Part shown: positions 497-23,180 of the stretch, in pieces
Position numbering within the stretch: position 1 is the first letter of the stretch
Layout: every line of letters starts with the position of its first letter
Virus record (IMG/VR): IMGVR_UViG_3300020397_000005
Coordinates: 1-34,304 of that record
DNA: 34,304 bases
DNA from: a virus
Taxonomy: Duplodnaviria > Caudoviricetes
Reading direction: 5' to 3' (one strand)
Program-made: the position numbers and the translations under genes
The notes under the pieces: generated by a model
Database searches by the model: none
Told to the model about the DNA's origin: nothing
Seen by the model: the letters and a program-made list of their open reading frames with translations, nothing else

Positions 497-874
497 TTAG
501 GTAAGTCTGGGGCTTCTTGGCCCTCCTTTTGTTCTACCATCTACAAACTTGATCTTATGTTTTTTGGCGATGGTCTGCACATTTTGAGTCGAGACCCCAA
601 ACTTTCGGCTCACTTCGGCTTGGGATAACCCATCCTTTGCCATTTGAATATAGGTATCTACACCACCAGGAACCTTACTAATACCAGTTCCGTTACTAAT
701 ACTTTGCTGGGTAGGCCAGTTGACATTGTACTTATTGATCAACTTGGTCATGTAAGTCAAAGAGATGTTTAGCTCCCTGGCTCCTTTGATCCTGGAGATT
801 CCGCGCTTGCCATACTTCTCCAAAAAAGCAGCTTTCTCTTTCTCCTGTTTATCGATTAGTTTTTGCCAAGTCAT
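497..874 (-). CDS. Helix-turn-helix DNA-binding protein (two HTH-like segments)
   Basis: ISRIKGARELNISLTYMTKLI and LSQAEVSRKFGVSTQNVQTIA. Confidence 0.7.
   Translation of the reverse strand: MTWQKLIDKQEKEKAAFLEKYGKRGISRIKGARELNISLTYMTKLINKYNVNWPTQQSISNGTGISKVPGGVDTYIQMAKDGLSQAEVSRKFGVSTQNVQTIAKKHKIKFVDGRTKGGPRSPRLT
509..530 (+). terminator. Possible weak terminator ending the plus-strand unit
   Basis: GGGGCT-TCTT-GGCCCT followed by CCTTTT, just past the point where the two transcription units converge. Confidence 0.25.
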
Positions 875-1608
875 TACTTCACCTGTTTCTGAATGTTGTC
901 ATGCTCGAAGTCGAGCGCTGCTTTACTTACATCTGGTAGATCGAGTAAACCTTTGATAGCGATCTCAGTTGTGTGCCGGACTGTTTCTCCCAGTTTGTCC
1001 AGGTTATCATAGTTTGCCAGGATCAATTCGATCTGTGTCTTTCTGGATCTTTTCTTCTCCTGGTAAAGTGTAAGGGTTGCCAACAGTTCAGTGCTAAACA
1101 TTCCAGCGGTGCTGAGAATATCTTTGAACTCCCCATTGTGCCATAGTAACCGCCAACCTTCCTTTGGTTCCTCCTGCACTGGTTTCTGGGGCTGTACGCT
1201 CATATCAATCTCAGGCTTCTTTTTCTTTGGCTTTTCCTCCGGTGCATCTGGCAGATCTTCGCCCTGGTAAATGTATAAACCCAAACCATGCATGGCTATT
1301 GCTTTCACGAAGCAGCGCATCCTGGCCTTGTTAATTGCTTGTGCATCTGGATTTTTGATAGCTTGCATTGTATTGTTCATAACAGCTAACCACATTGTAT
1401 GCGTTACGCCATCGATTGTGACACTGCATCGAACCTCTCGGGTGTTGTCTGGATAAACAAGATCCTCGAGTAATTCATAAGACGCGCTCTTCACGCTGTT
1501 CTGAACGTGCTTCCAGGCATCTGCCCAGGACAAGTAATCATACTTGCCCTTCTTTTCTTTATCGTCATTTACATTTAAAGACGAAAGTGTTTGCCAAGTT
1601 TTATTCAT
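874..1608 (-). CDS. Sak-type single-strand annealing recombinase (DUF1071-like)
   Basis: EKKGKYDYLSWADAW...MWLAVM...INKARMRCFVKAIAMHGLGLYIYQGEDLP signature. Confidence 0.85.
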   Translation of the reverse strand: MNKTWQTLSSLNVNDDKEKKGKYDYLSWADAWKHVQNSVKSASYELLEDLVYPDNTREVRCSVTIDGVTHTMWLAVMNNTMQAIKNPDAQAINKARMRCFVKAIAMHGLGLYIYQGEDLPDAPEEKPKKKKPEIDMSVQPQKPVQEEPKEGWRLLWHNGEFKDILSTAGMFSTELLATLTLYQEKKRSRKTQIELILANYDNLDKLGETVRHTTEIAIKGLLDLPDVSKAALDFEHDNIQKQVK

Positions 1609-2090
1609 TTTAACCTCACATTGATTGATTGATTGCCTGGCCTTGGTCTGGCTCCTGGCACTGGTTCGCCATCATCCAGGATCTTTTTGATTGCCTGGAT
1701 ATCTGGTTTGATCGTTGTTATTTTCAGCTGACTTGGCACCTGGGCCTCATCAACTATCTCAACAGACCATCGCGGTTTCGTAATGCTGACAGTTGCCAGA
1801 GCATGGGGTACTTTCTTTACACCCATAGAAGTGAGCAGCTGCAACATCACTTGCCTGGTTGCATCTTGTCTGTCTCCCAGGACAGTCGCACGTTTTCGAT
1901 ATACATCGATCAGTTCCTTGACTGCTTTCTCCTGGGCTTTGAGCTCCTGGTCTTGCTCGATTAGCTTGCCCAGGACATCCATTGCATCTGTCTCACCATC
2001 GAGAGTGTCCAGGAATGTGTCCTCATCATCTCCGCACATTTCCCTGATGCTGTCAGACATACGCCTGATCTCTTCGTATTTAATATACAT
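1605..2090 (-). CDS. Siphovirus Gp157-family protein
   Basis: Coiled-coil N-terminus (FLDTLDGE), C-terminal KPDIQAIKKILDDGEPVPGA...SINVR; adjacent to the recombinase. Confidence 0.85.
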   Translation of the reverse strand: MYIKYEEIRRMSDSIREMCGDDEDTFLDTLDGETDAMDVLGKLIEQDQELKAQEKAVKELIDVYRKRATVLGDRQDATRQVMLQLLTSMGVKKVPHALATVSITKPRWSVEIVDEAQVPSQLKITTIKPDIQAIKKILDDGEPVPGARPRPGNQSINVRLK

Positions 2091-4577: not shown

Positions 4578-4980
4578 TGTCTGGATGATCGGTCAGCCGA
4601 TCGGCAAAGGCCGCCCCAGGTTTACCAGGCAAGGCAGAGCATACACCCCAGCAAAAACCAAAGATTATGAAAAGCGCCTGGCAGCTATCGCCAGCGATAA
4701 AATGGTGGAGCTCGGGCTCGATCCCATCACCGCACCCTGCAAGGTTCATATCCTGGCACAGTTCGAAGTTCCTAAATCCTGGACAAAGAAGCGCACAGAG
4801 GCCGCCTGGAGAGCCGAAGTGTTTCCTGGTAGGCCAGATATCGATAATGTGGTTAAGATCGCCCTGGACGCTCTCAACGGCGTTATGTTCGAAGATGATG
4901 CCCAGGTGTACCAGGTAACAGCTCATAAGAAGTATGGTGATCCAATGATTTTAATAACAATAGAGTGGGAAAATGGGTAA
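4567..4980 (+). CDS. rusA: RusA-like Holliday junction resolvase
   Basis: PIGKGRPRF...YTPAKTKDYE...RPDIDNVVKIALDALNGVMFEDDAQV; ATG at 4567 preferred. Confidence 0.92.
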   Translation: MRIDVWMIGQPIGKGRPRFTRQGRAYTPAKTKDYEKRLAAIASDKMVELGLDPITAPCKVHILAQFEVPKSWTKKRTEAAWRAEVFPGRPDIDNVVKIALDALNGVMFEDDAQVYQVTAHKKYGDPMILITIEWENG

Positions 4981-5212
4981 CAAAAAGTCAAAAAAACAGT
5001 TTAGAAACTCTTTCGAAAAAAGATATCCAGAGGTTGATTTTCAAAAAGACGATTGGATGCTGGAGGTTCTTAAAATTTGCAAAAAGCATTTGGACAATAA
5101 TCCTGACGATTTTCAAGCCAGGTTTGATGTTGGGATGATTAAAATTTGTCATGAATTTAGCATGGCAATAGATCAACGGTTTAAAAAAAGAAATGTTACC
5201 ACCAAAAGCTAA
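4973..5212 (+). CDS. Hypothetical protein
   Basis: 79-aa ORF overlapping both neighbours; AT-rich. Confidence 0.6.
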   Translation: MGNKKSKKQFRNSFEKRYPEVDFQKDDWMLEVLKICKKHLDNNPDDFQARFDVGMIKICHEFSMAIDQRFKKRNVTTKS

Positions 5213-6032
5213 GAACCAGGATCTCAGAAACTATTCAGTGATTCCAATCCAGGCAGCTATGGATAAGCGGCTACATGGTACAGCTGCGCTCTCTCTCCTG
5301 GTTGTGATCTGTACTTACACAGATCAGCTGGGAGTAACCTGGGTAAGCCAGGACAGACTAGCTGTTGACCTGGGAGTTTCCAGGACTGCGATTGCCAAAC
5401 AGATGAGAAGGCTGCGCGACCTGGGATATATCGTCTACGCGAAAAAGAGATCCAAGTACCAGAAGACAACCAGTGTCCGAGTTGTATTCCCATCAGCTCC
5501 CGAGGATGAAGATGAAGCCAAAGCAAACCTAACAGCTGCATCACAGATTGTCCTGGAAGAAACCAGGCAAGCAGCCGCCGAGGAACAAAAGCAACAGTTT
5601 CTCAAGACATTTAAACTTAATAAAAAGCCTGTGGATAACTCTACCACCTGTGACCCCCAGAGGTCACACCTACCTGTGACTTCCAGAGGTCACACAGAAC
5701 GAGACAATAGAACGTATAATAATAATATATATAATGATGAAGCTAGACGTTTTTCTGCATTGTTTTTAAAAATATGTAATGAGTATGGAACACCCAGGAA
5801 TGTTAATGATCGAGACATTTTAGTAATTGCCAGGTGGATCAGGGAAGGGCTGACAATGAAGGTCTGGTCTGAAATACTAACAAACCATGCTACATATTGT
5901 TATAAGAATAGGCGCGATCTAGCCAGGGCAATAGGATATTTCCAGGTGCCAGTATCAAAAGCCCTGGGCAAATCAAGCAACCCCCAGGTCGACCAGGCAA
6001 TCCAGGGAATTGTCAGAAATACCAGGTCATAA
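5193..6032 (+). CDS. Putative replication initiator with N-terminal winged HTH (lambda O-like organisation)
   Basis: TWVSQDRLAVDLGVSRTAIAKQMRRLRDLGYI HTH; central linker carries iterons and a DnaA box. Confidence 0.75.
   Translation: MLPPKAKNQDLRNYSVIPIQAAMDKRLHGTAALSLLVVICTYTDQLGVTWVSQDRLAVDLGVSRTAIAKQMRRLRDLGYIVYAKKRSKYQKTTSVRVVFPSAPEDEDEAKANLTAASQIVLEETRQAAAEEQKQQFLKTFKLNKKPVDNSTTCDPQRSHLPVTSRGHTERDNRTYNNNIYNDEARRFSALFLKICNEYGTPRNVNDRDILVIARWIREGLTMKVWSEILTNHATYCYKNRRDLARAIGYFQVPVSKALGKSSNPQVDQAIQGIVRNTRS
5630..5740. other. Putative replication origin
   Basis: Consensus DnaA box TGTGGATAA (5630-5638); two 24-bp repeats ACCTGTGACYYCCAGAGGTCACAC (5646-5669, 5672-5695); AT-rich tract about 5711-5740. 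Confidence 0.75.
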
Positions 6033-6094
6033 TGTTCTATTTGCGACATCGGTCCTATCAAATCTGCTAAGTCATTGTTTTTAAACAGCAACGC

Positions 6095-6122
6095 ACTTCG
6101 CATAATCTATATTATGTTAAAT
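6095..6122 (+). other. dif-like XerC/XerD recombination site
   Basis: ACTTCGCATAA-TCTATA-TTATGTTAAAT versus E. coli dif GGTGCGCATAA-TGTATA-TTATGTTAAAT. The XerD arm is identical and the site is intergenic. Confidence 0.9.
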
Positions 6123-6245
6123 GACGCAAAACACCACCCTTGGCCCCCCACCCCACGCGCTGTATGTGTAGTGTCCCACATAAATATTTTCTGGATTTTT
6201 CCCAAAAGAAATGCGATACCAGAAAAATAATAGGAAGGAACTAAA

Positions 6246-6500
6246 ATGAAAAAAATGTATAATGTTGTTCAGGGTCAGCCACGCTATAATGATCCTACAA
6301 AAAGTGATTGGATACAGCTTGGCGTTGCCTGGGATGATAGTAAGGGGATGCGCATCAAGTTAAATGCGTTACCTTTACCTAACAAAGAAGGTGATGTTTG
6401 GGTGAGTTTATTTCCGAAGGACGATAAGTTTCAAGGATCTGATCAATCTAGCCAGCATAATTCTCAGGCTAATGATTTTGATGATGAGATACCGATTTAA
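6246..6500 (+). CDS. Small single-stranded DNA-binding-like protein
   Basis: Beta-rich core (WIQLGVAW...IKLNALP...VSLF), flexible linker and SSB-type acidic tail DFDDEIPI. Confidence 0.7.
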   Translation: MKKMYNVVQGQPRYNDPTKSDWIQLGVAWDDSKGMRIKLNALPLPNKEGDVWVSLFPKDDKFQGSDQSSQHNSQANDFDDEIPI

Positions 6501-6916
6501 TGGCTAGAACCAGGCAAACACCTATAGGCCGCTTTGGTGGTGTTAGGGTTGCCCAGCGCAGGGTTAAGACCAGCGCGACATTAGAGCAGAATAAGGAAGC
6601 TGTTGCCCAGGAGTTGATTGCCCTGGGCACGACTTCCATTACTGAGATTATGAATTTAGATGGCACGATGAAGAACCAGGAGGATATTCCTGATTATGCG
6701 TTAAGAGCTATCAAAAGGATCACGCCTATGCCGGATGGTCGGGTTGCTGTTGAGATGCACGATAAGGTTTCGGTGCTGCGTGTTCTGGCAAAAGCAGCTG
6801 GGTTTCTGGATAGTCCGGACAAAGAGAGCGATAAGCCCTCGATTGTTGGAATTAATATGAAAGGTCCGGAAACGACTGAATATGAGGTAATCGATGAGCA
6901 AGACGGCAAGACTTGA
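6500..6916 (+). CDS. terS: Terminase small subunit
   Basis: AVAQELIALG...AIKRI...VEMHDKVSVLRVLAK pattern; upstream of TerL. Confidence 0.7.
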   Translation: MARTRQTPIGRFGGVRVAQRRVKTSATLEQNKEAVAQELIALGTTSITEIMNLDGTMKNQEDIPDYALRAIKRITPMPDGRVAVEMHDKVSVLRVLAKAAGFLDSPDKESDKPSIVGINMKGPETTEYEVIDEQDGKT

Positions 6917-7082
6917 GGTTGCGATCTATATGCTCGAGGAACGAATAAAATCCCTCGAGGGTTCATTGAGAGAGATTAGGGATACGGCCAAGGTGTATAA
7001 TGATGTCGAAGAGTCCTGGCATATTGAACAATTAGCAGATAAAGCATTGCAGGAAAAAAATGAGCGCGATCCCCAGTCTTGA
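6894..7082 (+). CDS. Hypothetical coiled-coil protein
   Basis: GAGG SD; lies between terS and terL. Confidence 0.6.
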   Translation: MSKTARLEVAIYMLEERIKSLEGSLREIRDTAKVYNDVEESWHIEQLADKALQEKNERDPQS

Positions 7083-8583
7083 TTTAAACTTTGAGAACAG
7101 CCCGACAGTTTGGAAGTTTTTACATGATGAAAGTTTCGTTAGGGGCTTGATGGGTCCGGTAGGATCTGGTAAGTCCTATGGTTGCGCAGCTGAGATAATG
7201 TTAAGGGCAGTGAAGCAAAAGCCTAGTCCTCGAGATGGTATTCGTTATTCGCGTTTCGTTATCGTCAGAAATACATATCCCGAGCTGCGCACCACAACTA
7301 TTAAAACCTGGCAAGAGCTTTTTCCCGAGGATGTGTGGGGTGGTATGCGCTGGCAACCACCTATATCGCATCATATTAAGATCCCCACCAGGGATGATAT
7401 CCCAGGCATCGATTGTGAGGTCATATTTATGGCGTTATCTTCTCCGCAAGACGTCAGAAAATTATTGTCATTGGAACTCACTGGTGCCTGGGTCAACGAA
7501 GCCAGGGAGCTGCCGAAGGCGGTGATTGATGGATTGACGCATCGAGTCGGTCGATATCCTACAAAATCTGATGGCGGTCCTACCTGGTATGGCATTTGGA
7601 TGGATACTAACCCTCCTGATAGCGATCATTGGTGGCATGAGGTAGCAGAAAAGCATCCGATCAAAGGATCTTATCCCTGGACGTTTTTCAGACAACCTGG
7701 CGGTGTTTTACAAGCTTCGCCTGATGAAGTGCCGGATGATAACCCTGACGCCCAGGGCTTTGTGTTTTCTGGAGCAAAATGGTGGCGCATCAATGAAAAT
7801 GCTGAAAATGCTAATAATCTGCCACCAGGTTACTATCAACAGCTGCTTGGTGGTAAAAACGCAGATTGGATTCGATGTTATGCCCAGGGAATGTATACAT
7901 TTGTCCAGGAGGGTAGACCAGTTTGGCCGGAGTATGACGATGAGCTTATGTCCGGTGATGTGGAGGTAGATCCGTATTATCCAATACAAATCGGTGTAGA
8001 CTTTGGGCTTACGCCAGCTGCTATCTTTGGTCAGCGTACCCAGGGCGGTGCCTGGAAGGTTTGTGATGAGCTAGTGACTTTTGATATGGGGCTCGAGCGA
8101 TTTGGACAAGAACTCCTAGGAAGAATAGCAGAACGATATTCTAAGCATGAAATACTGATATGGGGAGATCCGGCTGGTAACAAACGCGATGAGATCTATG
8201 AAGTAACAGCGTTTGATCATCTCAGATCCCTGGGATTTAAGGCGCAACCTACAGATAGCAATGCTTTCCAGGTAAGACGCGAGGCCGGAGCTTCCCCAAT
8301 GTCCAGGTTGGTGAGCGGTAAACCAGGACTTATTGTTGATAAAAAATGTTTGCGGCTGCGCAAATCACTCAGCGGTGGATATTTTTTCAAAAGGCAAAGC
8401 CTGGGCGCTGGTCAGGAAAGATTTAAAGATGCGCCCGTCAAGAACGAACATTCGCACTGTGGCGATGCTTTTGGCTATCTTATGCTAGGCGGTGGTGAGC
8501 AAAGACGTTTACGGAGAGGCTCGTATGGCACGACTTTCCAACAGGGGTCATATACTGCAAGTAGCGAGTTTAACGTGTTCTGA
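7060..8583 (+). CDS. terL: Terminase large subunit
   Basis: Walker A GPVGSGKS, Walker B GAWVNE, MDTNPP, RNase H-like GVDFG...WGDPAG...HCGDAFGY. Confidence 0.96.
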   Translation: MSAIPSLDLNFENSPTVWKFLHDESFVRGLMGPVGSGKSYGCAAEIMLRAVKQKPSPRDGIRYSRFVIVRNTYPELRTTTIKTWQELFPEDVWGGMRWQPPISHHIKIPTRDDIPGIDCEVIFMALSSPQDVRKLLSLELTGAWVNEARELPKAVIDGLTHRVGRYPTKSDGGPTWYGIWMDTNPPDSDHWWHEVAEKHPIKGSYPWTFFRQPGGVLQASPDEVPDDNPDAQGFVFSGAKWWRINENAENANNLPPGYYQQLLGGKNADWIRCYAQGMYTFVQEGRPVWPEYDDELMSGDVEVDPYYPIQIGVDFGLTPAAIFGQRTQGGAWKVCDELVTFDMGLERFGQELLGRIAERYSKHEILIWGDPAGNKRDEIYEVTAFDHLRSLGFKAQPTDSNAFQVRREAGASPMSRLVSGKPGLIVDKKCLRLRKSLSGGYFFKRQSLGAGQERFKDAPVKNEHSHCGDAFGYLMLGGGEQRRLRRGSYGTTFQQGSYTASSEFNVF

Positions 8584-17377: not shown

Positions 17378-19944
17378 TGGCTAGATTACCAAGATTAAGA
17401 AGCGCTGGAGTACAAGCTGCTATTCCTAGAAGTGTAGATTTTGCTGGGCTTCGAGGGGAGGCGGCAGTAGGTCAAACTATATCACAAACGTTTGATCAAA
17501 TGTCTAATTTTCTCTACAAGACTGCACAGAAAGAAGCTGTAAGATCTGGTATTGAAAGGGTAAGAACAGAGGGAGCGCAGCCAATACTCGAGGCAATGAA
17601 AGCCCAGGGTGGTCCAAGAGGTCTTGAAGAAGAAACTGCTTATGAAGCTGCAAACAAAATAGCTATTGCAGAAATACAAACAGAAGCAGAATTAGAAATT
17701 GCAAAAATTTTAACAGATGGTCAAAACAATAAAACGCCATTTAGCTCAATACAGTCACAACTAAAAAGTGTTTCTGACGGTTTTCCGGCAGCGCTATCAG
17801 ATATCGATCCGGTATCAGCTGCAATGTTAAGAACAAATCTTCAAGGCAAAACAGAAAAAGCAGGGCTTAGATATTCTGAATTTTGGTCTAAAGAAACATT
17901 AAGAACTTTAAAAGAAAGACAAAATATAGCGGCTGCAAATAAAGCAGAAACTATAATTGGTAATGCTAGTGTTGCAGGGTTTGACCCAAAAGAACTAGAA
18001 AAAGATATAACAGAAGCCGCTACAGAATTAAAAGATCTAGGCGTTAGGCCAAACGATTTAACTACCTGGTCAGAAAACGTAAGAGAAGAAGCGTTAAAAA
18101 ATAACATATTGTTTGATTTTTATCAAAAAGATCTTAGCGAACAAGAGGAGTTTATAAACGATATAAAATCTGGCAAAACAACTTTACCAGGTATGGATTT
18201 TGAAACGAGCATACGTTTTATAAATGGATTGTTATCACCAGAGTATAACAGAAACAAAAGAGCGGTAGAGGCTCAATCTACGTTTATAATTAACAGGGTA
18301 GAAGATCTCGAAGATGTTTTAGAAAATGGTGGACAGATTGATCAGGAAGAACTTGCTAACTTATTGTCTGACTCATCAAATGTAATTAATTATGACGAAG
18401 GGGCATCCTCTACAGCTGCAAGAGGACTGCAAGATACAAGTAATTTCTTCGGTGAACTAAGAACTAAATCATTAGCTGAACTAGAGGCATATGTAACAAA
18501 TCTTGAAACAAATGGTTTTGATGGCACTTTAGACACGCCAGAAGAAGTTACCAGGGTAAAACAAGCGCAAAACTTTCTTACCAACATGAGAACACAAGTT
18601 AATGATAATCCTATGGGTTATGCAGCTAAAGTAGGCCTAATCAAAAGAAATGAAATTATTACTGTTGATGAAGATAGTAGATTACAAATTGACCAGGGCG
18701 CTCTTACCGAAAGATTAAAACAGGCAACAGTTGTTGCAAGAGAATATGGATTAGCAAATCCTCCTGTCTTTTTTAAAGATGAAATTAATCAACTAGGTTT
18801 AGCCTTAGAAAAAGCTGAAGGCGCTGTTAAGCTTGATATATTAGGTATGCTTTCAACTATTGGCGAAAGCAATGGCGAGGTTCTTACCCAATTATCAGAA
18901 TATAATAAAAGTGATGCGTTAATTGGTGGCCTTGTAACAATGGGATCTACGCGAGCTGCAACCCTGGCAGTAAATGGTATGGACCGATTAAAGAATGATT
19001 TAACACCGCCTGGATTTACAAGCACAAACACTGACCCAGTATTTTTAGATGTTGTTGGCAAACATATGTTTAACGCTCCAATACAGCAATCAGCAATTAA
19101 AGATGTAGCTAAAGCTATCTATACAGAGCTTGCTGCTCAACAAGGTTTAGGAAATTGGAAAGATAACACCGATGAAGCTGTTGCGCTTTATGAGCAAGCC
19201 TTACAATTAGCTTCTGGTCAGCGCAAAGTAATGACTGACACAGGCGAAGTTATTTATGGGGGTATGCAGCCAGTAAGAGAAAAGATGACTTTTATTCCTC
19301 CAAATATGACAGCTGCCGATATGGAAAAGGTTATTGCTAATTTAAATCCAGCGTCAATAGAAGCTATCACAGGTCAAAAAATAGACCCAGCTTATCCAGA
19401 AAAAATTAAAGAAGAAGAAACCTATAAGTTAATTTTTGCAGGAGGCAATCAATACTATATTTCAAATGTAGAAGATGTTGATAGGTTTGGCGATGATGTT
19501 CCTGTTTTAGATGTTGATGAGTCAACCATATTATTTAATCCAATGGACTTCTTGCAACCTATGCCCGAAATACCAGGGCCAGAAGTTAAAAGCGAAGTAG
19601 TGGGAACTATAAATCTTTCTGATGCTTTTTCTGATCCTGTCGATAAACCAGACCTTACAACAGCTCAAGACCCAACGGTAGAAAGAGGTCAACAACCAAA
19701 ACAAAGATTTGCTTTTGAGGCTGCCCTGGGCGCAAATACAAAACAAACAAAAAAATTAAGAAAAGAACTTAACGAGGGTTTACAATCTGGAAAGCTAAAT
19801 GAGGCAAGTACAGTTAGATATTTAGAATCATTGCCAGAGCCAGGCGATGATAATTTTGATGCAGATCTTTATACAAAATATGCCGATTTTATAATTGATG
19901 GTGGTAGCTTAACATACGCACAGTGGTTGAAAACTCAACAATGA
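17377..19944 (+). CDS. Large internal virion (ejection) protein
   Basis: 855 aa, helical composition; synteny after the gp14-like gene. Confidence 0.7.
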   Translation: MARLPRLRSAGVQAAIPRSVDFAGLRGEAAVGQTISQTFDQMSNFLYKTAQKEAVRSGIERVRTEGAQPILEAMKAQGGPRGLEEETAYEAANKIAIAEIQTEAELEIAKILTDGQNNKTPFSSIQSQLKSVSDGFPAALSDIDPVSAAMLRTNLQGKTEKAGLRYSEFWSKETLRTLKERQNIAAANKAETIIGNASVAGFDPKELEKDITEAATELKDLGVRPNDLTTWSENVREEALKNNILFDFYQKDLSEQEEFINDIKSGKTTLPGMDFETSIRFINGLLSPEYNRNKRAVEAQSTFIINRVEDLEDVLENGGQIDQEELANLLSDSSNVINYDEGASSTAARGLQDTSNFFGELRTKSLAELEAYVTNLETNGFDGTLDTPEEVTRVKQAQNFLTNMRTQVNDNPMGYAAKVGLIKRNEIITVDEDSRLQIDQGALTERLKQATVVAREYGLANPPVFFKDEINQLGLALEKAEGAVKLDILGMLSTIGESNGEVLTQLSEYNKSDALIGGLVTMGSTRAATLAVNGMDRLKNDLTPPGFTSTNTDPVFLDVVGKHMFNAPIQQSAIKDVAKAIYTELAAQQGLGNWKDNTDEAVALYEQALQLASGQRKVMTDTGEVIYGGMQPVREKMTFIPPNMTAADMEKVIANLNPASIEAITGQKIDPAYPEKIKEEETYKLIFAGGNQYYISNVEDVDRFGDDVPVLDVDESTILFNPMDFLQPMPEIPGPEVKSEVVGTINLSDAFSDPVDKPDLTTAQDPTVERGQQPKQRFAFEAALGANTKQTKKLRKELNEGLQSGKLNEASTVRYLESLPEPGDDNFDADLYTKYADFIIDGGSLTYAQWLKTQQ

Positions 19945-22900
19945 TACAGTTTGATAAACCTAACAAATTGACATTAAGAGATCTGCAAGGGTTATCAAAG
20001 CCAGTTACCAGGTTCGAAGAAAATTATAGTGCTGCTAGAAAAAAATCGCAGTATTTAGATCAATCTCAAAGTAGAGATAGAATATTGCAAGATTTATGGG
20101 ATCCTATTGTAGAAGAGCTAAGTGAGCTATTTCCTAATGAAACATTTGTAGATCCAGGCTCTTATATAAATAGAGGTTTGTTTTCAACAACTGCTACACC
20201 AGGAAAAGCTAGAGCTGATTATGAATGGAGAGCGTCACAAATTCTTGGGTTCTTAAATGAAAACCAGGAAATAATACCGGATCACTTAAAAGGTATTACT
20301 CTTGAAAGTCTTGAGGATCTAGCTTCAGAAAGAGCAAAAGCAGCTAAAGAATACAATGATGAGATATCGTCTAGGGCTGTTGGAACAAGTGGTCAAGTTG
20401 GTCAATTTCTAGGGCAAGTTGTAGGAGTTGTTGAGGATCCTCAAATTCTAAGCACGTTACCATTAGGGCTAAGCTCAAGAAGTTTAATGAAGTTAGCTTT
20501 CTTCGAGGCATCATTAGGAGCCGGAATTACAGCCATGAGTGAAGCTTCTGTTAAGCAATGGTACGAAAAACAAGGATATGATTATACCTGGAATGATTTT
20601 ATTAGAAACGTAGGGTTTGCGGCAGCTGGTAGTGCGGCATTACCTGTTGGTTTTAGAGTGACTGTTAATACTGCTAGAGGTGGTTTTAACGTCTTAGCAA
20701 AAGCTGGAAAGGCAAATAAAGATAGCCAATTCTTAGAAACTGCAGCCAGGGAAGCTGAAGAGTTTGAAGCTGACAATCCGTTTGTAGATAGTCAATTTGC
20801 CAGATCCCAAGCAGAACATAATAATCGAACAACAGAAGCTGATGCAGCCGTTTTCAATAATAAAGCTCCAGCTATGCCGGATGAAGCTACAATACAGCCA
20901 ACGCCAGAAATAATTGCTTCATCTACTGATAATTTAAATGGTGTTATGTTTTCCGTTCCAGCCAGAAATGCTTTGATTGATGCAAAGAGATTTCAGTTTA
21001 AAGAGGGTGGTGATGAGTACGGTGTAACCGAAAGGCTGCAAGGTGTTACAGAGTGGGATGATGTAAAGGCCGGAACAGTTATCTTTTGGGAGGATGTTGA
21101 TGGCAAGATATTCGTAGCAGATGGACATCAAAGAGCCGGACTAGCTAAAAGAATAATGGATCAAGATCCTAGCCAGGACATTAACCTGGTTGGTTATAAG
21201 TTGCGTGAAGTTGATGACATAAGCGCAGAAAAGGCTCGAGTGATAGCAGCTACAGCAAACATTGCCCAGGGAACAGGTACAGCTATCGATGCAGCAAAAA
21301 TACTTAGAGTTGAACCTGGCAGATTATCTGAGCTACCTCCTCGATCAACATTAGTAAGACAAGCAAGGGATCTTGTAAAACTAAGTGACGATGCTTTTGG
21401 ATCTATCGTTAATGGTGTAATACCGCCAAACTATGGTGCTATAGTTGGCAGATTAATTGATGATCCTGACAAGCAACAAGCAGCTATCCAAGTTTTAGCA
21501 AGGTCTGATGCTGCAAACGCTTTTCAGGCAGAAACCATTGTTCGCCAGGTAAATGAGCAAGATTTAGTAAATGAAGTACAAACTGGCCTGTTTGGTGATG
21601 AGGTGCTTGCGGAAAGTTTATTCCTAGAACGTGCCAGGGTATTAGACAGAACGTACAAAATACTAAGAGAAGATAAAACAGCATTTGAGAACTTGAGCAA
21701 AAATGCAGATCGCATTGAGGCCGAGGGAAACAAACTAGAGAAAACTAGAAACCAGGAAAGGGCAAATCAAAATGGCAAAGCGATCACGCTCCTCCAGGCG
21801 CTTGCAACGAGAAAAGGAGAGCTTAGCGATGAACTCTCAGCGGCAGCAAGAACAGCCAGGGAAACAAACAACTATGCGAACGCAGCAAGAGGATTCGCCG
21901 AGTCTGTCAGAAGAGGAATTGAGCGAGGCGATTTTGATCGGGCAGAAGTTGGCGATGTTAGACGCACTTTCGATGATGCGCCGAAAAGCCGCCAAGACGC
22001 GATTGAAGATGAGCCAAGCTTAGAGGGCTTCGATGAGCCATCTGGTAAAGCAGCTGAAGATCAAACAGACCAATTAGTAACTAATACTTTTAGAGAAATG
22101 GATGAGGCGCAAGAGCCTAACTCATTAGCTAATTTAAAATTTTTGCTTGGAACCAATCCAACAAGAGAACAAATTAATAGCCATCCGGCAGTTGTAAATG
22201 CGCTTAGAGAAATGGAGTCGCGTCCAGAAACAATAAATGCGCCAAATTATAATTCAACAGAGTGGCATCAAAGTAGGACTTATAAAATTGACGGTGAGGA
22301 AGTTGTTGGAACTAAATCAGCTATGGTCAAATTTGAAGAGCAAGCTGAAACTCTGGCATATAAAGAGCTTGGGTTAGACCCAGGAACAATAGCCAGGAAT
22401 AAAGAGGTTACTATTATTCTAGGCCCACCAGCTGCCGGAAAAAGCACTATTGCGAATGAGATAGCTGTAGCTAACAGATCTGCAATATTAGATAGTGATG
22501 AAATTAAAAAAACATTACCAGAGTTTGAAGGTGGTAAAGGAACTGGTGCCGTACATGAGGAAAGTTCTAGTTTATCTAAGATGCTGCAAGACATAATGAT
22601 AAGTCGTGGCACAAATATCACACTGCCTAAAGTTGGTCATAGTACGTCTAGTATTCGTAAAGCGGTATCACTATATAAAGAGAAGGGGTATAAAGTCCGA
22701 TTACTGTCAATGGATGTTACCCCAGAAAATGCTGTCAACAGGATGCTTGGTCGTTTTGTTGAGACAGGTAGGTTTATACCATTATCATATTTAGATTCTG
22801 TTGGCACCAAGCCAGCTGAAACATTTAGAGTATTAAGAGAGGAGAACGCAGCCGATGGCTATGCCAAAATCGACAACAATGGTGGATTCAAAGACCCCAA

Positions 22901-23180
22901 AACAGTCTCAGAAATCTCAGGAGACAACCCCCTCAAAGGATCCAGGTTTGATATTCCTTCGGGTGGAAGAACAGGACCTGGAGCTCTCAGACGCTCAAAA
23001 AGCGATAGTGAAAGAATTGAGTTCGGGGTAGAAGAGTCTGAGCTTGACCTGGAGATCCCTGTTGATCTTAGAGTTGAAGGTGAGAGCATAGTTACTCAAA
23101 CAAGAACTTTACGAGACGTTAAGGCTGAACTCGATGCAGAGGACGCTTTAATTAATAGATTAGGGGTTTGCTCAATATGA
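19941..23180 (+). CDS. Polyvalent internal virion protein with ParB-like and zeta-toxin-like P-loop kinase domains
   Basis: IFVADGHQR (DGHQR 21120-21134); IILGPPAAGKST (GPPAAGKS 22422-22445)...ILDSDEIKKTLPEF...VHEESS...RF..TGRFIP. ATGA overlap supports a start at 19941. Confidence 0.8.
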   Translation: MIQFDKPNKLTLRDLQGLSKPVTRFEENYSAARKKSQYLDQSQSRDRILQDLWDPIVEELSELFPNETFVDPGSYINRGLFSTTATPGKARADYEWRASQILGFLNENQEIIPDHLKGITLESLEDLASERAKAAKEYNDEISSRAVGTSGQVGQFLGQVVGVVEDPQILSTLPLGLSSRSLMKLAFFEASLGAGITAMSEASVKQWYEKQGYDYTWNDFIRNVGFAAAGSAALPVGFRVTVNTARGGFNVLAKAGKANKDSQFLETAAREAEEFEADNPFVDSQFARSQAEHNNRTTEADAAVFNNKAPAMPDEATIQPTPEIIASSTDNLNGVMFSVPARNALIDAKRFQFKEGGDEYGVTERLQGVTEWDDVKAGTVIFWEDVDGKIFVADGHQRAGLAKRIMDQDPSQDINLVGYKLREVDDISAEKARVIAATANIAQGTGTAIDAAKILRVEPGRLSELPPRSTLVRQARDLVKLSDDAFGSIVNGVIPPNYGAIVGRLIDDPDKQQAAIQVLARSDAANAFQAETIVRQVNEQDLVNEVQTGLFGDEVLAESLFLERARVLDRTYKILREDKTAFENLSKNADRIEAEGNKLEKTRNQERANQNGKAITLLQALATRKGELSDELSAAARTARETNNYANAARGFAESVRRGIERGDFDRAEVGDVRRTFDDAPKSRQDAIEDEPSLEGFDEPSGKAAEDQTDQLVTNTFREMDEAQEPNSLANLKFLLGTNPTREQINSHPAVVNALREMESRPETINAPNYNSTEWHQSRTYKIDGEEVVGTKSAMVKFEEQAETLAYKELGLDPGTIARNKEVTIILGPPAAGKSTIANEIAVANRSAILDSDEIKKTLPEFEGGKGTGAVHEESSSLSKMLQDIMISRGTNITLPKVGHSTSSIRKAVSLYKEKGYKVRLLSMDVTPENAVNRMLGRFVETGRFIPLSYLDSVGTKPAETFRVLREENAADGYAKIDNNGGFKDPKTVSEISGDNPLKGSRFDIPSGGRTGPGALRRSKSDSERIEFGVEESELDLEIPVDLRVEGESIVTQTRTLRDVKAELDAEDALINRLGVCSI

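What the first reader, a model, noticed from the sequence alone, without database searches (positions are those of the whole stretch)
6095..6122. Chromosome-type dif site in an integrase-less tailed phage
Seen: ACTTCGCATAA-TCTATA-TTATGTTAAAT, 62 bp after the initiator gene. The XerD arm matches E. coli dif at 11/11, the inner XerC arm CGCATAA is intact, and the central hexamer differs by one base. The genome has no recombinase. Known: XerCD acts at dif and is hijacked by IMEX elements (CTXphi, VGJphi, TLC) and by plasmids. Inference: the phage uses host XerCD to resolve genome multimers or to integrate at the host dif. With ori, rep and the RHH switch, this would be a compact cryptic-temperate or phage-plasmid module in a phage that looks lytic. 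The site may also help identify the host.
Basis: partly seen in the sequence, partly recalled or inferred. Interest (0 to 1): 0.85.

Follow-up and report, generated by a model that had tools for sequence, protein, structure and literature searches.

The report
IHF-dif module replacing a phage resolvase
This marine tailed phage has no recombinase gene but, like most of its close relatives, keeps a near-exact copy of the bacterial chromosome-untangling signal (dif) with a predicted site for the DNA-bending protein IHF 14 bases away, just ahead of its packaging genes, so it likely borrows host enzymes to join or separate copies of its own DNA rather than to enter the host chromosome.

Summary
The site is real: 24/28 identical to E. 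coli dif, in a complete 34.3-kb MEP301-like podophage without integrase, resolvase, XafT or ParA. It lies between rep and an ssb-like gene in 71 of 83 distinct family gaps, always with rep upstream; no host junction was found. Arms are nearly invariant, the core varies (21 types in 46 sites) and both orientations occur. New here: an IHF consensus (recalled) sits 13-14 bp outside the site in 42 of 61 flanks, and a C-run/A-tract follows. The same module precedes terminase genes in other phages; two cultured phages hold dif inside their terminal repeats. On the TerL tree, basal relatives carry a small serine resolvase and no dif; two lineages have dif and no resolvase; some have neither. Best reading (0.55): host XerC/XerD recombine two copies of the phage's own site (end-joining or multimer resolution). 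Integration at host dif remains (0.22): a distant relative is a prophage at dif, but with its own XerC-like gene. The site does not name the host. The scan reported dif and dif+IHF beside terminases before, on other DNA; my paper searches found no description.

The parts
6095..6122 (+). dif-like site: XerC arm 6095-6105, core TCTATA 6106-6111, XerD arm 6112-6122
   Evidence: conserved in 71 of 83 family gaps
6068..6080 (-). IHF-consensus-like 13-mer (one mismatch to the recalled WATCAANNNNTTR), 14 bp outside the dif on the rep side
   Evidence: 41 of 61 distinct flanks at offset 14 and 1 at 13; background 0.0009 per position; 2 of 44 host difs
6136..6194 (+). C-run followed by CACATAAATATTTTCTGG A/T tract; family-wide, also in dif-less members; inferred packaging or genome-end signal
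   Evidence: a C-run follows 19 of 24 IHF-dif modules of other phages
5193..6032 (+). replication initiator (lambda O-like, N-terminal HTH)
   Evidence: PHROG replication initiation protein E 8e-9
5630..5695 (.). likely origin inside rep: DnaA-box-like 9-mer 5630-5638 (-) and two 24-bp palindromic direct repeats 5646-5669 and 5672-5695
   Evidence: sequence; function inferred
6246..6500 (+). SSB-like small protein (acidic C-terminal tail; label inferred, PHROG unknown function)
6500..6916 (+). terminase small subunit
   Evidence: Pfam Terminase_2 E 1.7e-5; 47% to MEP301 TerS
7060..8583 (+). terminase large subunit, 66.7% to Methylophilales phage MEP301
4549..4980 (+). RusA Holliday-junction resolvase (present in dif-bearing and dif-less members)
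874..2090 (-). Sak annealing protein and Gam-like end-protection protein: a homology-based route that could make the site dispensable

Best explanation
The 28-bp site is a chromosome-type dif with a fixed-distance IHF-like site beside it, and it likely lets host XerC/XerD recombine two copies of the phage's own site, either joining the redundant ends of the incoming genome into a circle or cutting replicating multimers back to circles, a job that a phage-encoded serine resolvase may have done in the ancestor. Shown: the site, its conservation pattern, the IHF spacing, the position before the packaging genes, the resolvase/dif distribution. Inferred: XerC/XerD and IHF binding; that both partners are phage copies (core free to drift, orientation free); that IHF bends the DNA to set up the synapse without FtsK, as accessory proteins do at cer/psi; that the C-run/A-tract marks the genome end, so the site would lie in a terminal redundancy; that RusA or replication finishes a half-exchanged junction.
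For: (1) In 46 distinct sites the arm positions CG.ATAA and TTATGT.AA are invariant or nearly so while the core has 21 types; among 52 close pairs the inner 4 core bases differ 19%, arms 7%, flanks 4% (flanks were the selection criterion); 8 of 12 clusters of near-identical flanks hold more than one core. (2) Orientation 23 '+': 48 '-', mixed among phages with 96-98% identical TerL. (3) 71 of 71 dif-bearing gaps have rep upstream, no host DNA; no loose end at the site among those listed in 4 runs. (4) IHF-like 13-mer at 13-14 bp in 42 of 61 flanks; across IMG/VR the spacing is discrete (XerD side 14 and 19, XerC side 13 and 19-21). (5) 35 of 62 hits of the exact module are other phages; 11 of 16 examined have terS and/or terL next to it. 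(6) Phage EdH4 has a dif at 170-197 inside a 459-bp terminal repeat and vB_PpS_SYP at 134-161 inside a 351-bp one. (7) All 8 resolvase-bearing loci that cover the gap lack dif, as do MEP301, L127 and L131; resolvase bearers are basal and a 30-row clade (100/98) holds 26 dif-bearers and no resolvase; L077/L078 keep the YqaJ module of resolvase bearers but have a dif variant and no resolvase. (8) No XafT-type gene (0 of 5) and no gene that co-occurs only with dif in 19 early regions.
Against: The genome ends of this family are unknown; Logan contigs over the site show no doubled depth (contigs are a poor measure). At least one relative with its whole early region in view has neither dif nor resolvase (L339), and 10 of 83 gaps lack the site, so it is dispensable and the either/or is not strict. 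The resolvase-to-dif change is two events on a tree, and the small resolvase has no shown function (PMC8024684 passage doubts it is functional). dif travels with the rep allele, not with TerL (L058 vs L048). The IHF match is missing in 14 of 21 '+'-oriented flanks. Gokushoviruses have variable cores yet integrate (PMC7062461 passages). No activator of XerD is evident; KOPS-like 8-mers are at chance level (2).
Confidence: 0.55

Rival explanations
1. The site is an attP: the phage integrates at the host dif with host XerC/XerD (VGJphi- or gokushovirus-type IMEX), needing pairing only next to the XerC cut.
For: A distant family member (TerL 68%) is a ~35.3-kb prophage flanked by a 16-bp dif repeat in a Hyphomicrobiales MAG contig. 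The first core base is T in 45 of 46 and the last A in 46 of 46 sites, like chromosomal difs and unlike many second, plasmid-like copies in Rhodobacteraceae. VGJphi integrates with a core mismatched on the XerD side (PMC4246890, PMC5357621 passages); gokushovirus cores vary. Divergent early/late layout with an RHH-like gene.
Against: That prophage has its own XerC-like recombinase and a degenerate XerD arm, at a different place in the genome. No junction in 71 gaps (many are virome contigs, so the test is weak). No TerL relative above 69% in the GTDB representative scan (21 hits; first scan none) and only 47-49% capsid hits in 401 Rhodobacteraceae genomes. Second core base differs in 4 of 12 close pairs. 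No XafT.
Confidence: 0.22
2. XerC/XerD and IHF bind but do not recombine: the complex organises the genome end for packaging, or brings a decatenating topoisomerase to replicated circles.
For: Core drifts freely, binding arms do not; the module sits at the packaging start in several phage groups; IHF acts at lambda cos (recalled).
Against: The 6-bp spacing and the T..A core edges are kept, as a cleavable site would need; the complementary distribution with a resolvase points to recombination.
Confidence: 0.12
3. Dimer-resolution site of a plasmid-like prophage (phage-plasmid).
For: O-like initiator with internal repeats and a DnaA-like box; RHH-like regulator; mechanism overlaps with the best explanation.
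Against: No ParA-family gene in 0 of 5 near-complete records; no other partition or addiction genes among 49 ORFs; the module occurs beside terminases and in terminal repeats of other phages.
Confidence: 0.06
4. A crossover point at which co-infecting phages swap the replication and packaging modules.
For: Identity between the window and L021 begins at the dif (6097) and runs through terS, while rep is 60% identical.
Against: Other mosaic borders fall at the C-run (L058 vs L048); differing cores would block exchange; such swapping would be a by-product and hardly keep the arms invariant.
Confidence: 0.05

Closest known systems
Chromosomal dif (XerC/XerD/FtsK), E. coli type
   Same: 11-6-11 layout, 24/28 identical to E. 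coli dif; same arms as Rhodobacteraceae and Burkholderiales sites
   Different: On a phage; core variable among close kin; fixed IHF-like neighbour (2 of 44 host difs have one); no KOPS bias
Plasmid Xer sites cer (ColE1) and psi (pSC101)
   Same: Host XerC/XerD on the element's own multimers with an accessory protein beside the core (PMC5357621 passages)
   Different: Accessory site looks like IHF, not PepA/ArgR/ArcA; arms fully canonical; beside packaging genes of a tailed phage
P1 loxP/Cre (recalled, no call)
   Same: Site-specific recombination between two phage copies for circularisation and dimer resolution
   Different: No phage recombinase; host enzymes would be used; ends of this phage unknown
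IMEXs: VGJphi, TLCphi, GGI, dif-type gokushoviruses and DJR phages
   Same: dif-like site in an integrase-less mobile element
   Different: Those are filamentous, tailless or islands and are seen integrated; TLC and GGI have a degenerate XerD arm; here both arms are canonical and no integrated close relative was found
MEP301-type phages (PMC8024684)
   Same: Gene order and TerL 66.7%
   Different: MEP301 has a small serine resolvase and YqaJ/ERF and no dif; the window has Sak/Gam, no resolvase and IHF-dif

Membership tests
dif-like XerC/XerD site | 11-bp XerC arm, 6-bp core, 11-bp XerD arm matching host dif | tested here: met
dif-like XerC/XerD site | XerC/XerD bind and recombine it | not testable with these tools
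   needs binding and recombination assays
IMEX (integrates at host dif with host XerC/XerD) | No recombinase of its own | tested here: met
IMEX (integrates at host dif with host XerC/XerD) | Integrated form flanked by hybrid dif sites | tested here: inconclusive
   none in 71 gaps, GTDB scans or 401 Rhodobacteraceae genomes; host genomes are poorly sampled; only a distant relative with its own recombinase is integrated
TLC-type IMEX | Degenerate XerD arm | tested here: not met
   XerD arm 11/11
TLC-type IMEX | XafT activator (taken as DUF3653/PF12375, recalled) | tested here: not met
   0 of 5 records at E<=0.1
CTX-type IMEX | Two inverted attP sites folding in ssDNA | tested here: not met
   single site in a dsDNA phage
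cer/psi-type plasmid resolution site | Accessory sequence bound by PepA with ArgR or ArcA | not tested
   no ArgR/ArcA scan run; an IHF-like site is present instead
Phage-plasmid | Partition system and stable extrachromosomal carrier state | tested here: not met
   no PF13614 ParA-like gene, 0 of 5; carrier state not testable
P1-type end-joining site | Site lies inside the terminal redundancy | tested here: inconclusive
   ends unknown for this family; met in EdH4 and vB_PpS_SYP records
MEP301-type phages | At least 40% of genes shared with MEP301 (paper's criterion) | not tested
   only TerL, TerS, rep and gene order compared

The most novel reading that the evidence does not exclude
Many tailed phages, including lytic ones, carry a cis-only IHF-dif module at their genome end and use the host's chromosome-resolution recombinases, with IHF as a new accessory factor and without FtsK, to circularise and resolve their own genomes; in MEP301-like marine podophages this module displaced the phage's own resolvase gene at least twice.
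Probability: 0.3. Interest if true: 0.85.

Novelty: new variant of a known kind. Interest (0 to 1): 0.66.

Why it matters
Xer hijacking is described for filamentous, tailless and satellite elements and for plasmids. A fixed IHF-dif module at the packaging start of tailed phages would add a host-dependent route to circularise or resolve phage genomes, a possible new Xer accessory protein, and a reason why host xerC/xerD/ihf state could affect lytic infection. It is directly testable, since E. coli phages with dif inside the terminal repeat are in culture. It also warns that a dif in a phage genome should not be read as a sign of lysogeny or as a host label.

Tried and rejected
Host from the site alone: rejected; arms match 130 of 401 genomes around a Rhodobacteraceae MAG and 43 of 61 around a Polynucleobacter MAG. 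Six of the phage cores also occur in Rhodobacteraceae, but I had picked 14 of those loci for matching, so this is no test; a 60-genome follow-up gave nothing clearer. Rhodobacteraceae is only a weak guess (one rep homolog at 62% in a Paracoccaceae MAG). Strict either/or of dif and resolvase: rejected. Diversifying selection on the core: not supported; 19% difference is of the order of the rep coding differences in the same pairs. Contig ends near the module (19 of 240 loci within 150 bp of an end) as a sign of genome termini: rejected, several start at G/C runs, likely assembly breaks. KOPS: chance level. The 47.7-kb record G026 is a partial duplication/chimera of phage DNA, not a prophage. 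G290:C9 and G351:C191 are distant phage contigs without a dif palindrome in the parts fetched. Hodr and MEP301 have no site of this type by PWM. The cultured phages Barba2A, phiITL-1, 4MG and PsaM_M1 have dif-like sites but no IHF match at 13-14 bp. No promoter, terminator or Rfam family above threshold in the gap. 27 metagenome loci could not be searched whole. Look-up for relatives in earlier findings was empty.

Full report
Observation. The 28-mer ACTTCGCATAA TCTATA TTATGTTAAAT is at 6095-6122 on the + strand, 62 bp after the stop codon of ORF 5193-6032. It is the only match in the window at up to 3 mismatches and none appeared in 100 shuffles. The E. coli chromosomal site fetched here differs at 4 of 28 positions: three outer XerC-arm bases and one core base. 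The window is a complete circular record of a podophage whose closest cultured relative by TerL is Methylophilales phage MEP301 (66.7%). No integrase or resolvase was found among 49 ORFs or in six frames. Contigs from two other studies span the site.

Conservation. In 80 TerL relatives from IMG/VR the site, where present, lies between rep and an ssb-like gene. A downstream family motif (C-run plus CACAWAAATATTTTC) gave a sample independent of dif: 66 viral and 79 metagenome contigs, 94 distinct gaps. Of these 83 have rep upstream: 71 carry a canonical site, 2 an ambiguous or one-base variant, 10 none. Of the other 11, three are divergent relatives with a variant dif, six look like chance motif matches and two are too short. 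In 46 distinct sites the inner arms are invariant or nearly so, the core has 21 types with T first (45/46) and A last (46/46), and orientation is 23 to 48. Among 52 close pairs the inner core differs 19%, arms 7%, flanks 4% (pairs were chosen on flank identity). This is the pattern of a protein-bound site whose core need not match a fixed outside partner.

A missed part. Reading outward on the rep side, a 13-mer within one mismatch of the IHF consensus (recalled) starts 14 bp from the site in 41 of 61 distinct flanks and 13 bp in one, against 0.0009 per position in the window and 2 of 44 host difs. It is present in 35 of 40 '-' and 7 of 21 '+' flanks. In the window it is 6068-6080. Across IMG/VR (scans stopped at 120 rows each) the spacing is discrete: XerD side 14 (50 contigs) and 19 (22); XerC side 13 (28) and 19-21 (82). 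Of 62 contigs with the exact 14-bp module, 35 are other phages; 11 of 16 examined have terS and/or terL beside it, most from one terminase family, and 19 of 24 distinct modules are followed by a C-run within 130 bp versus 1 of 24 upstream. Phage C72C1 has the same three parts right after terS. The element therefore goes with the packaging start, not only with rep.

Terminal repeats. The repeats are as deposited; I did not check how they were determined. The ends of the window's family are unknown, and contig depth over the site is not doubled (weak).

Resolvase versus dif. MEP301 has no such site but a small serine resolvase (PMC8024684 passages). PF00239 was found in 3 of 50 selected records, all dif-less, and PF00589 in 0 of 50 (50 of the 80 loci, mostly fragments). 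All 8 of 15 resolvase-bearing loci that cover the gap lack the palindrome; so do distant members L125, L127, L131. On a 46-row TerL tree resolvase bearers are basal; a 30-row clade (100/98) has 26 dif-bearers, 4 dif-less tips and no resolvase; L077/L080 are a second lineage with a different dif type, and L077/L078 keep the YqaJ module but lack the resolvase. Against a strict rule: L339 shows the whole early region with neither, and dif follows the rep allele rather than TerL.

Integration. None of the 71 sites borders host DNA, although many come from viromes. GTDB scans found no close TerL and 401 Rhodobacteraceae genomes gave two capsid hits at 47-49%. One distant member is integrated: about 35.3 kb between 16-bp repeats that are the left part of an alphaproteobacterial dif, full site at one end and degenerate XerD arm at the other, with host genes on both sides; it encodes its own XerC-like recombinase and the small resolvase. 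So the family can reach dif, with another anatomy. TLCphi and GGI have degenerate XerD arms and VGJphi needs pairing only on the XerC side (PMC5357621, PMC4246890 passages); gokushoviruses integrate despite variable cores (PMC7062461 passages). No XafT-type domain (the Pfam label is recalled), no dif-specific gene and no ParA-type gene were found.

Host. The arms fit Rhodobacteraceae (commonest core TCAGTA) and Burkholderiales (commonest TGTATA) alike; the window's core is in neither printed list (9 matches were not listed). A rep homolog at 62% lies in a Paracoccaceae MAG. The host is not established.

Mechanism. Most likely host XerC/XerD bind the site, IHF bends the DNA beside it, and two phage copies recombine: the two ends of a terminally redundant incoming genome, or repeated units in a multimer. 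Both partners share the core, so core sequence and orientation are free. Sak/Gam recombination offers a second route, which would explain losses. Binding, catalysis, the role of IHF and the position of the ends are all inferred. I put this at 0.55, integration at 0.22, binding without recombination at 0.12, phage-plasmid 0.06, module swapping 0.05.

Literature and earlier notes. Ten searches of the held library; those aimed at this idea (listings only) returned filamentous, tailless and plasmid cases, and the three with IHF or terminal repeat plus XerC terms returned none. Passages were read in PMC8024684, PMC12715192, PMC7901474, PMC5357621, PMC9226527, PMC7062461 and PMC4246890; no supplements were opened, and subscription papers are largely outside the library. 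P1 loxP/Cre and IHF at lambda cos are recalled. This scan noted dif in integrase-less tailed phages in 44 findings and dif with IHF beside packaging genes in freshwater phages; these are unchecked leads, not support. What this locus adds is the family-wide 14-bp IHF spacing that survives flipping of the site, the resolvase-to-dif replacement on a tree, and a relative integrated at dif with its own XerC-like gene.

Verdict. Real, conserved, and best read as a host-Xer site for the phage's own DNA; new variant of a known kind; interest 0.66.

Noticed in passing
G051:C36:63502-98856 (L174, L176, L173; L125): MEP301-type prophage inserted at the dif of a Hyphomicrobiales MAG; phage-side XerD arm degenerate (TLC/GGI-like); carries a XerC-like tyrosine recombinase (L174:6610-7521) and a small serine resolvase.
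   Followed up: partly
window 6136-6194: C-run/hairpin plus A/T tract, conserved in the whole family including MEP301 and after IHF-dif modules of other phages; candidate pac or end signal.
   Followed up: partly
window 19923-23180: 1085-aa virion-module protein with a zeta-toxin-like kinase domain (Pfam E 6e-19, residues 827-987) and a weak GNAT match; possibly an injected protein.
   Followed up: no
window 4973-5212: 79-aa ORF between rusA and rep that close relatives lack (contigs skip 4970-5191 in three runs); other relatives insert methylase-like or other genes at nearby spots.
   Followed up: no
L146, L150, L166, L169, L170: Many Rhodobacteraceae genomes have second dif-like sites with cores such as TGAAGT, often on small contigs: possible pdif-like plasmid modules in roseobacters.
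   Followed up: no
L077:8175-8202, L080:514-541, L199, L259, L315: Divergent family members carry other dif types (XerD arm TTATGGAGC or XerC arm CCGATAA); L199, L259, L315 and L077 keep an IHF-like site at 13-14 bp, L077/L080 also a DnaA-like box upstream.
   Followed up: partly
L350, L351, L353, L354: Cultured tailed phages Barba2A, phiITL-1, 4MG and PsaM_M1 have unannotated intergenic dif-like sites; 243 phage records match the 4MG site.
   Followed up: partly
L658:1-60: The Venkman (OM43 phage) record begins with an IHF-consensus-like 13-mer and DnaA-like boxes, without a clear dif.
   Followed up: no
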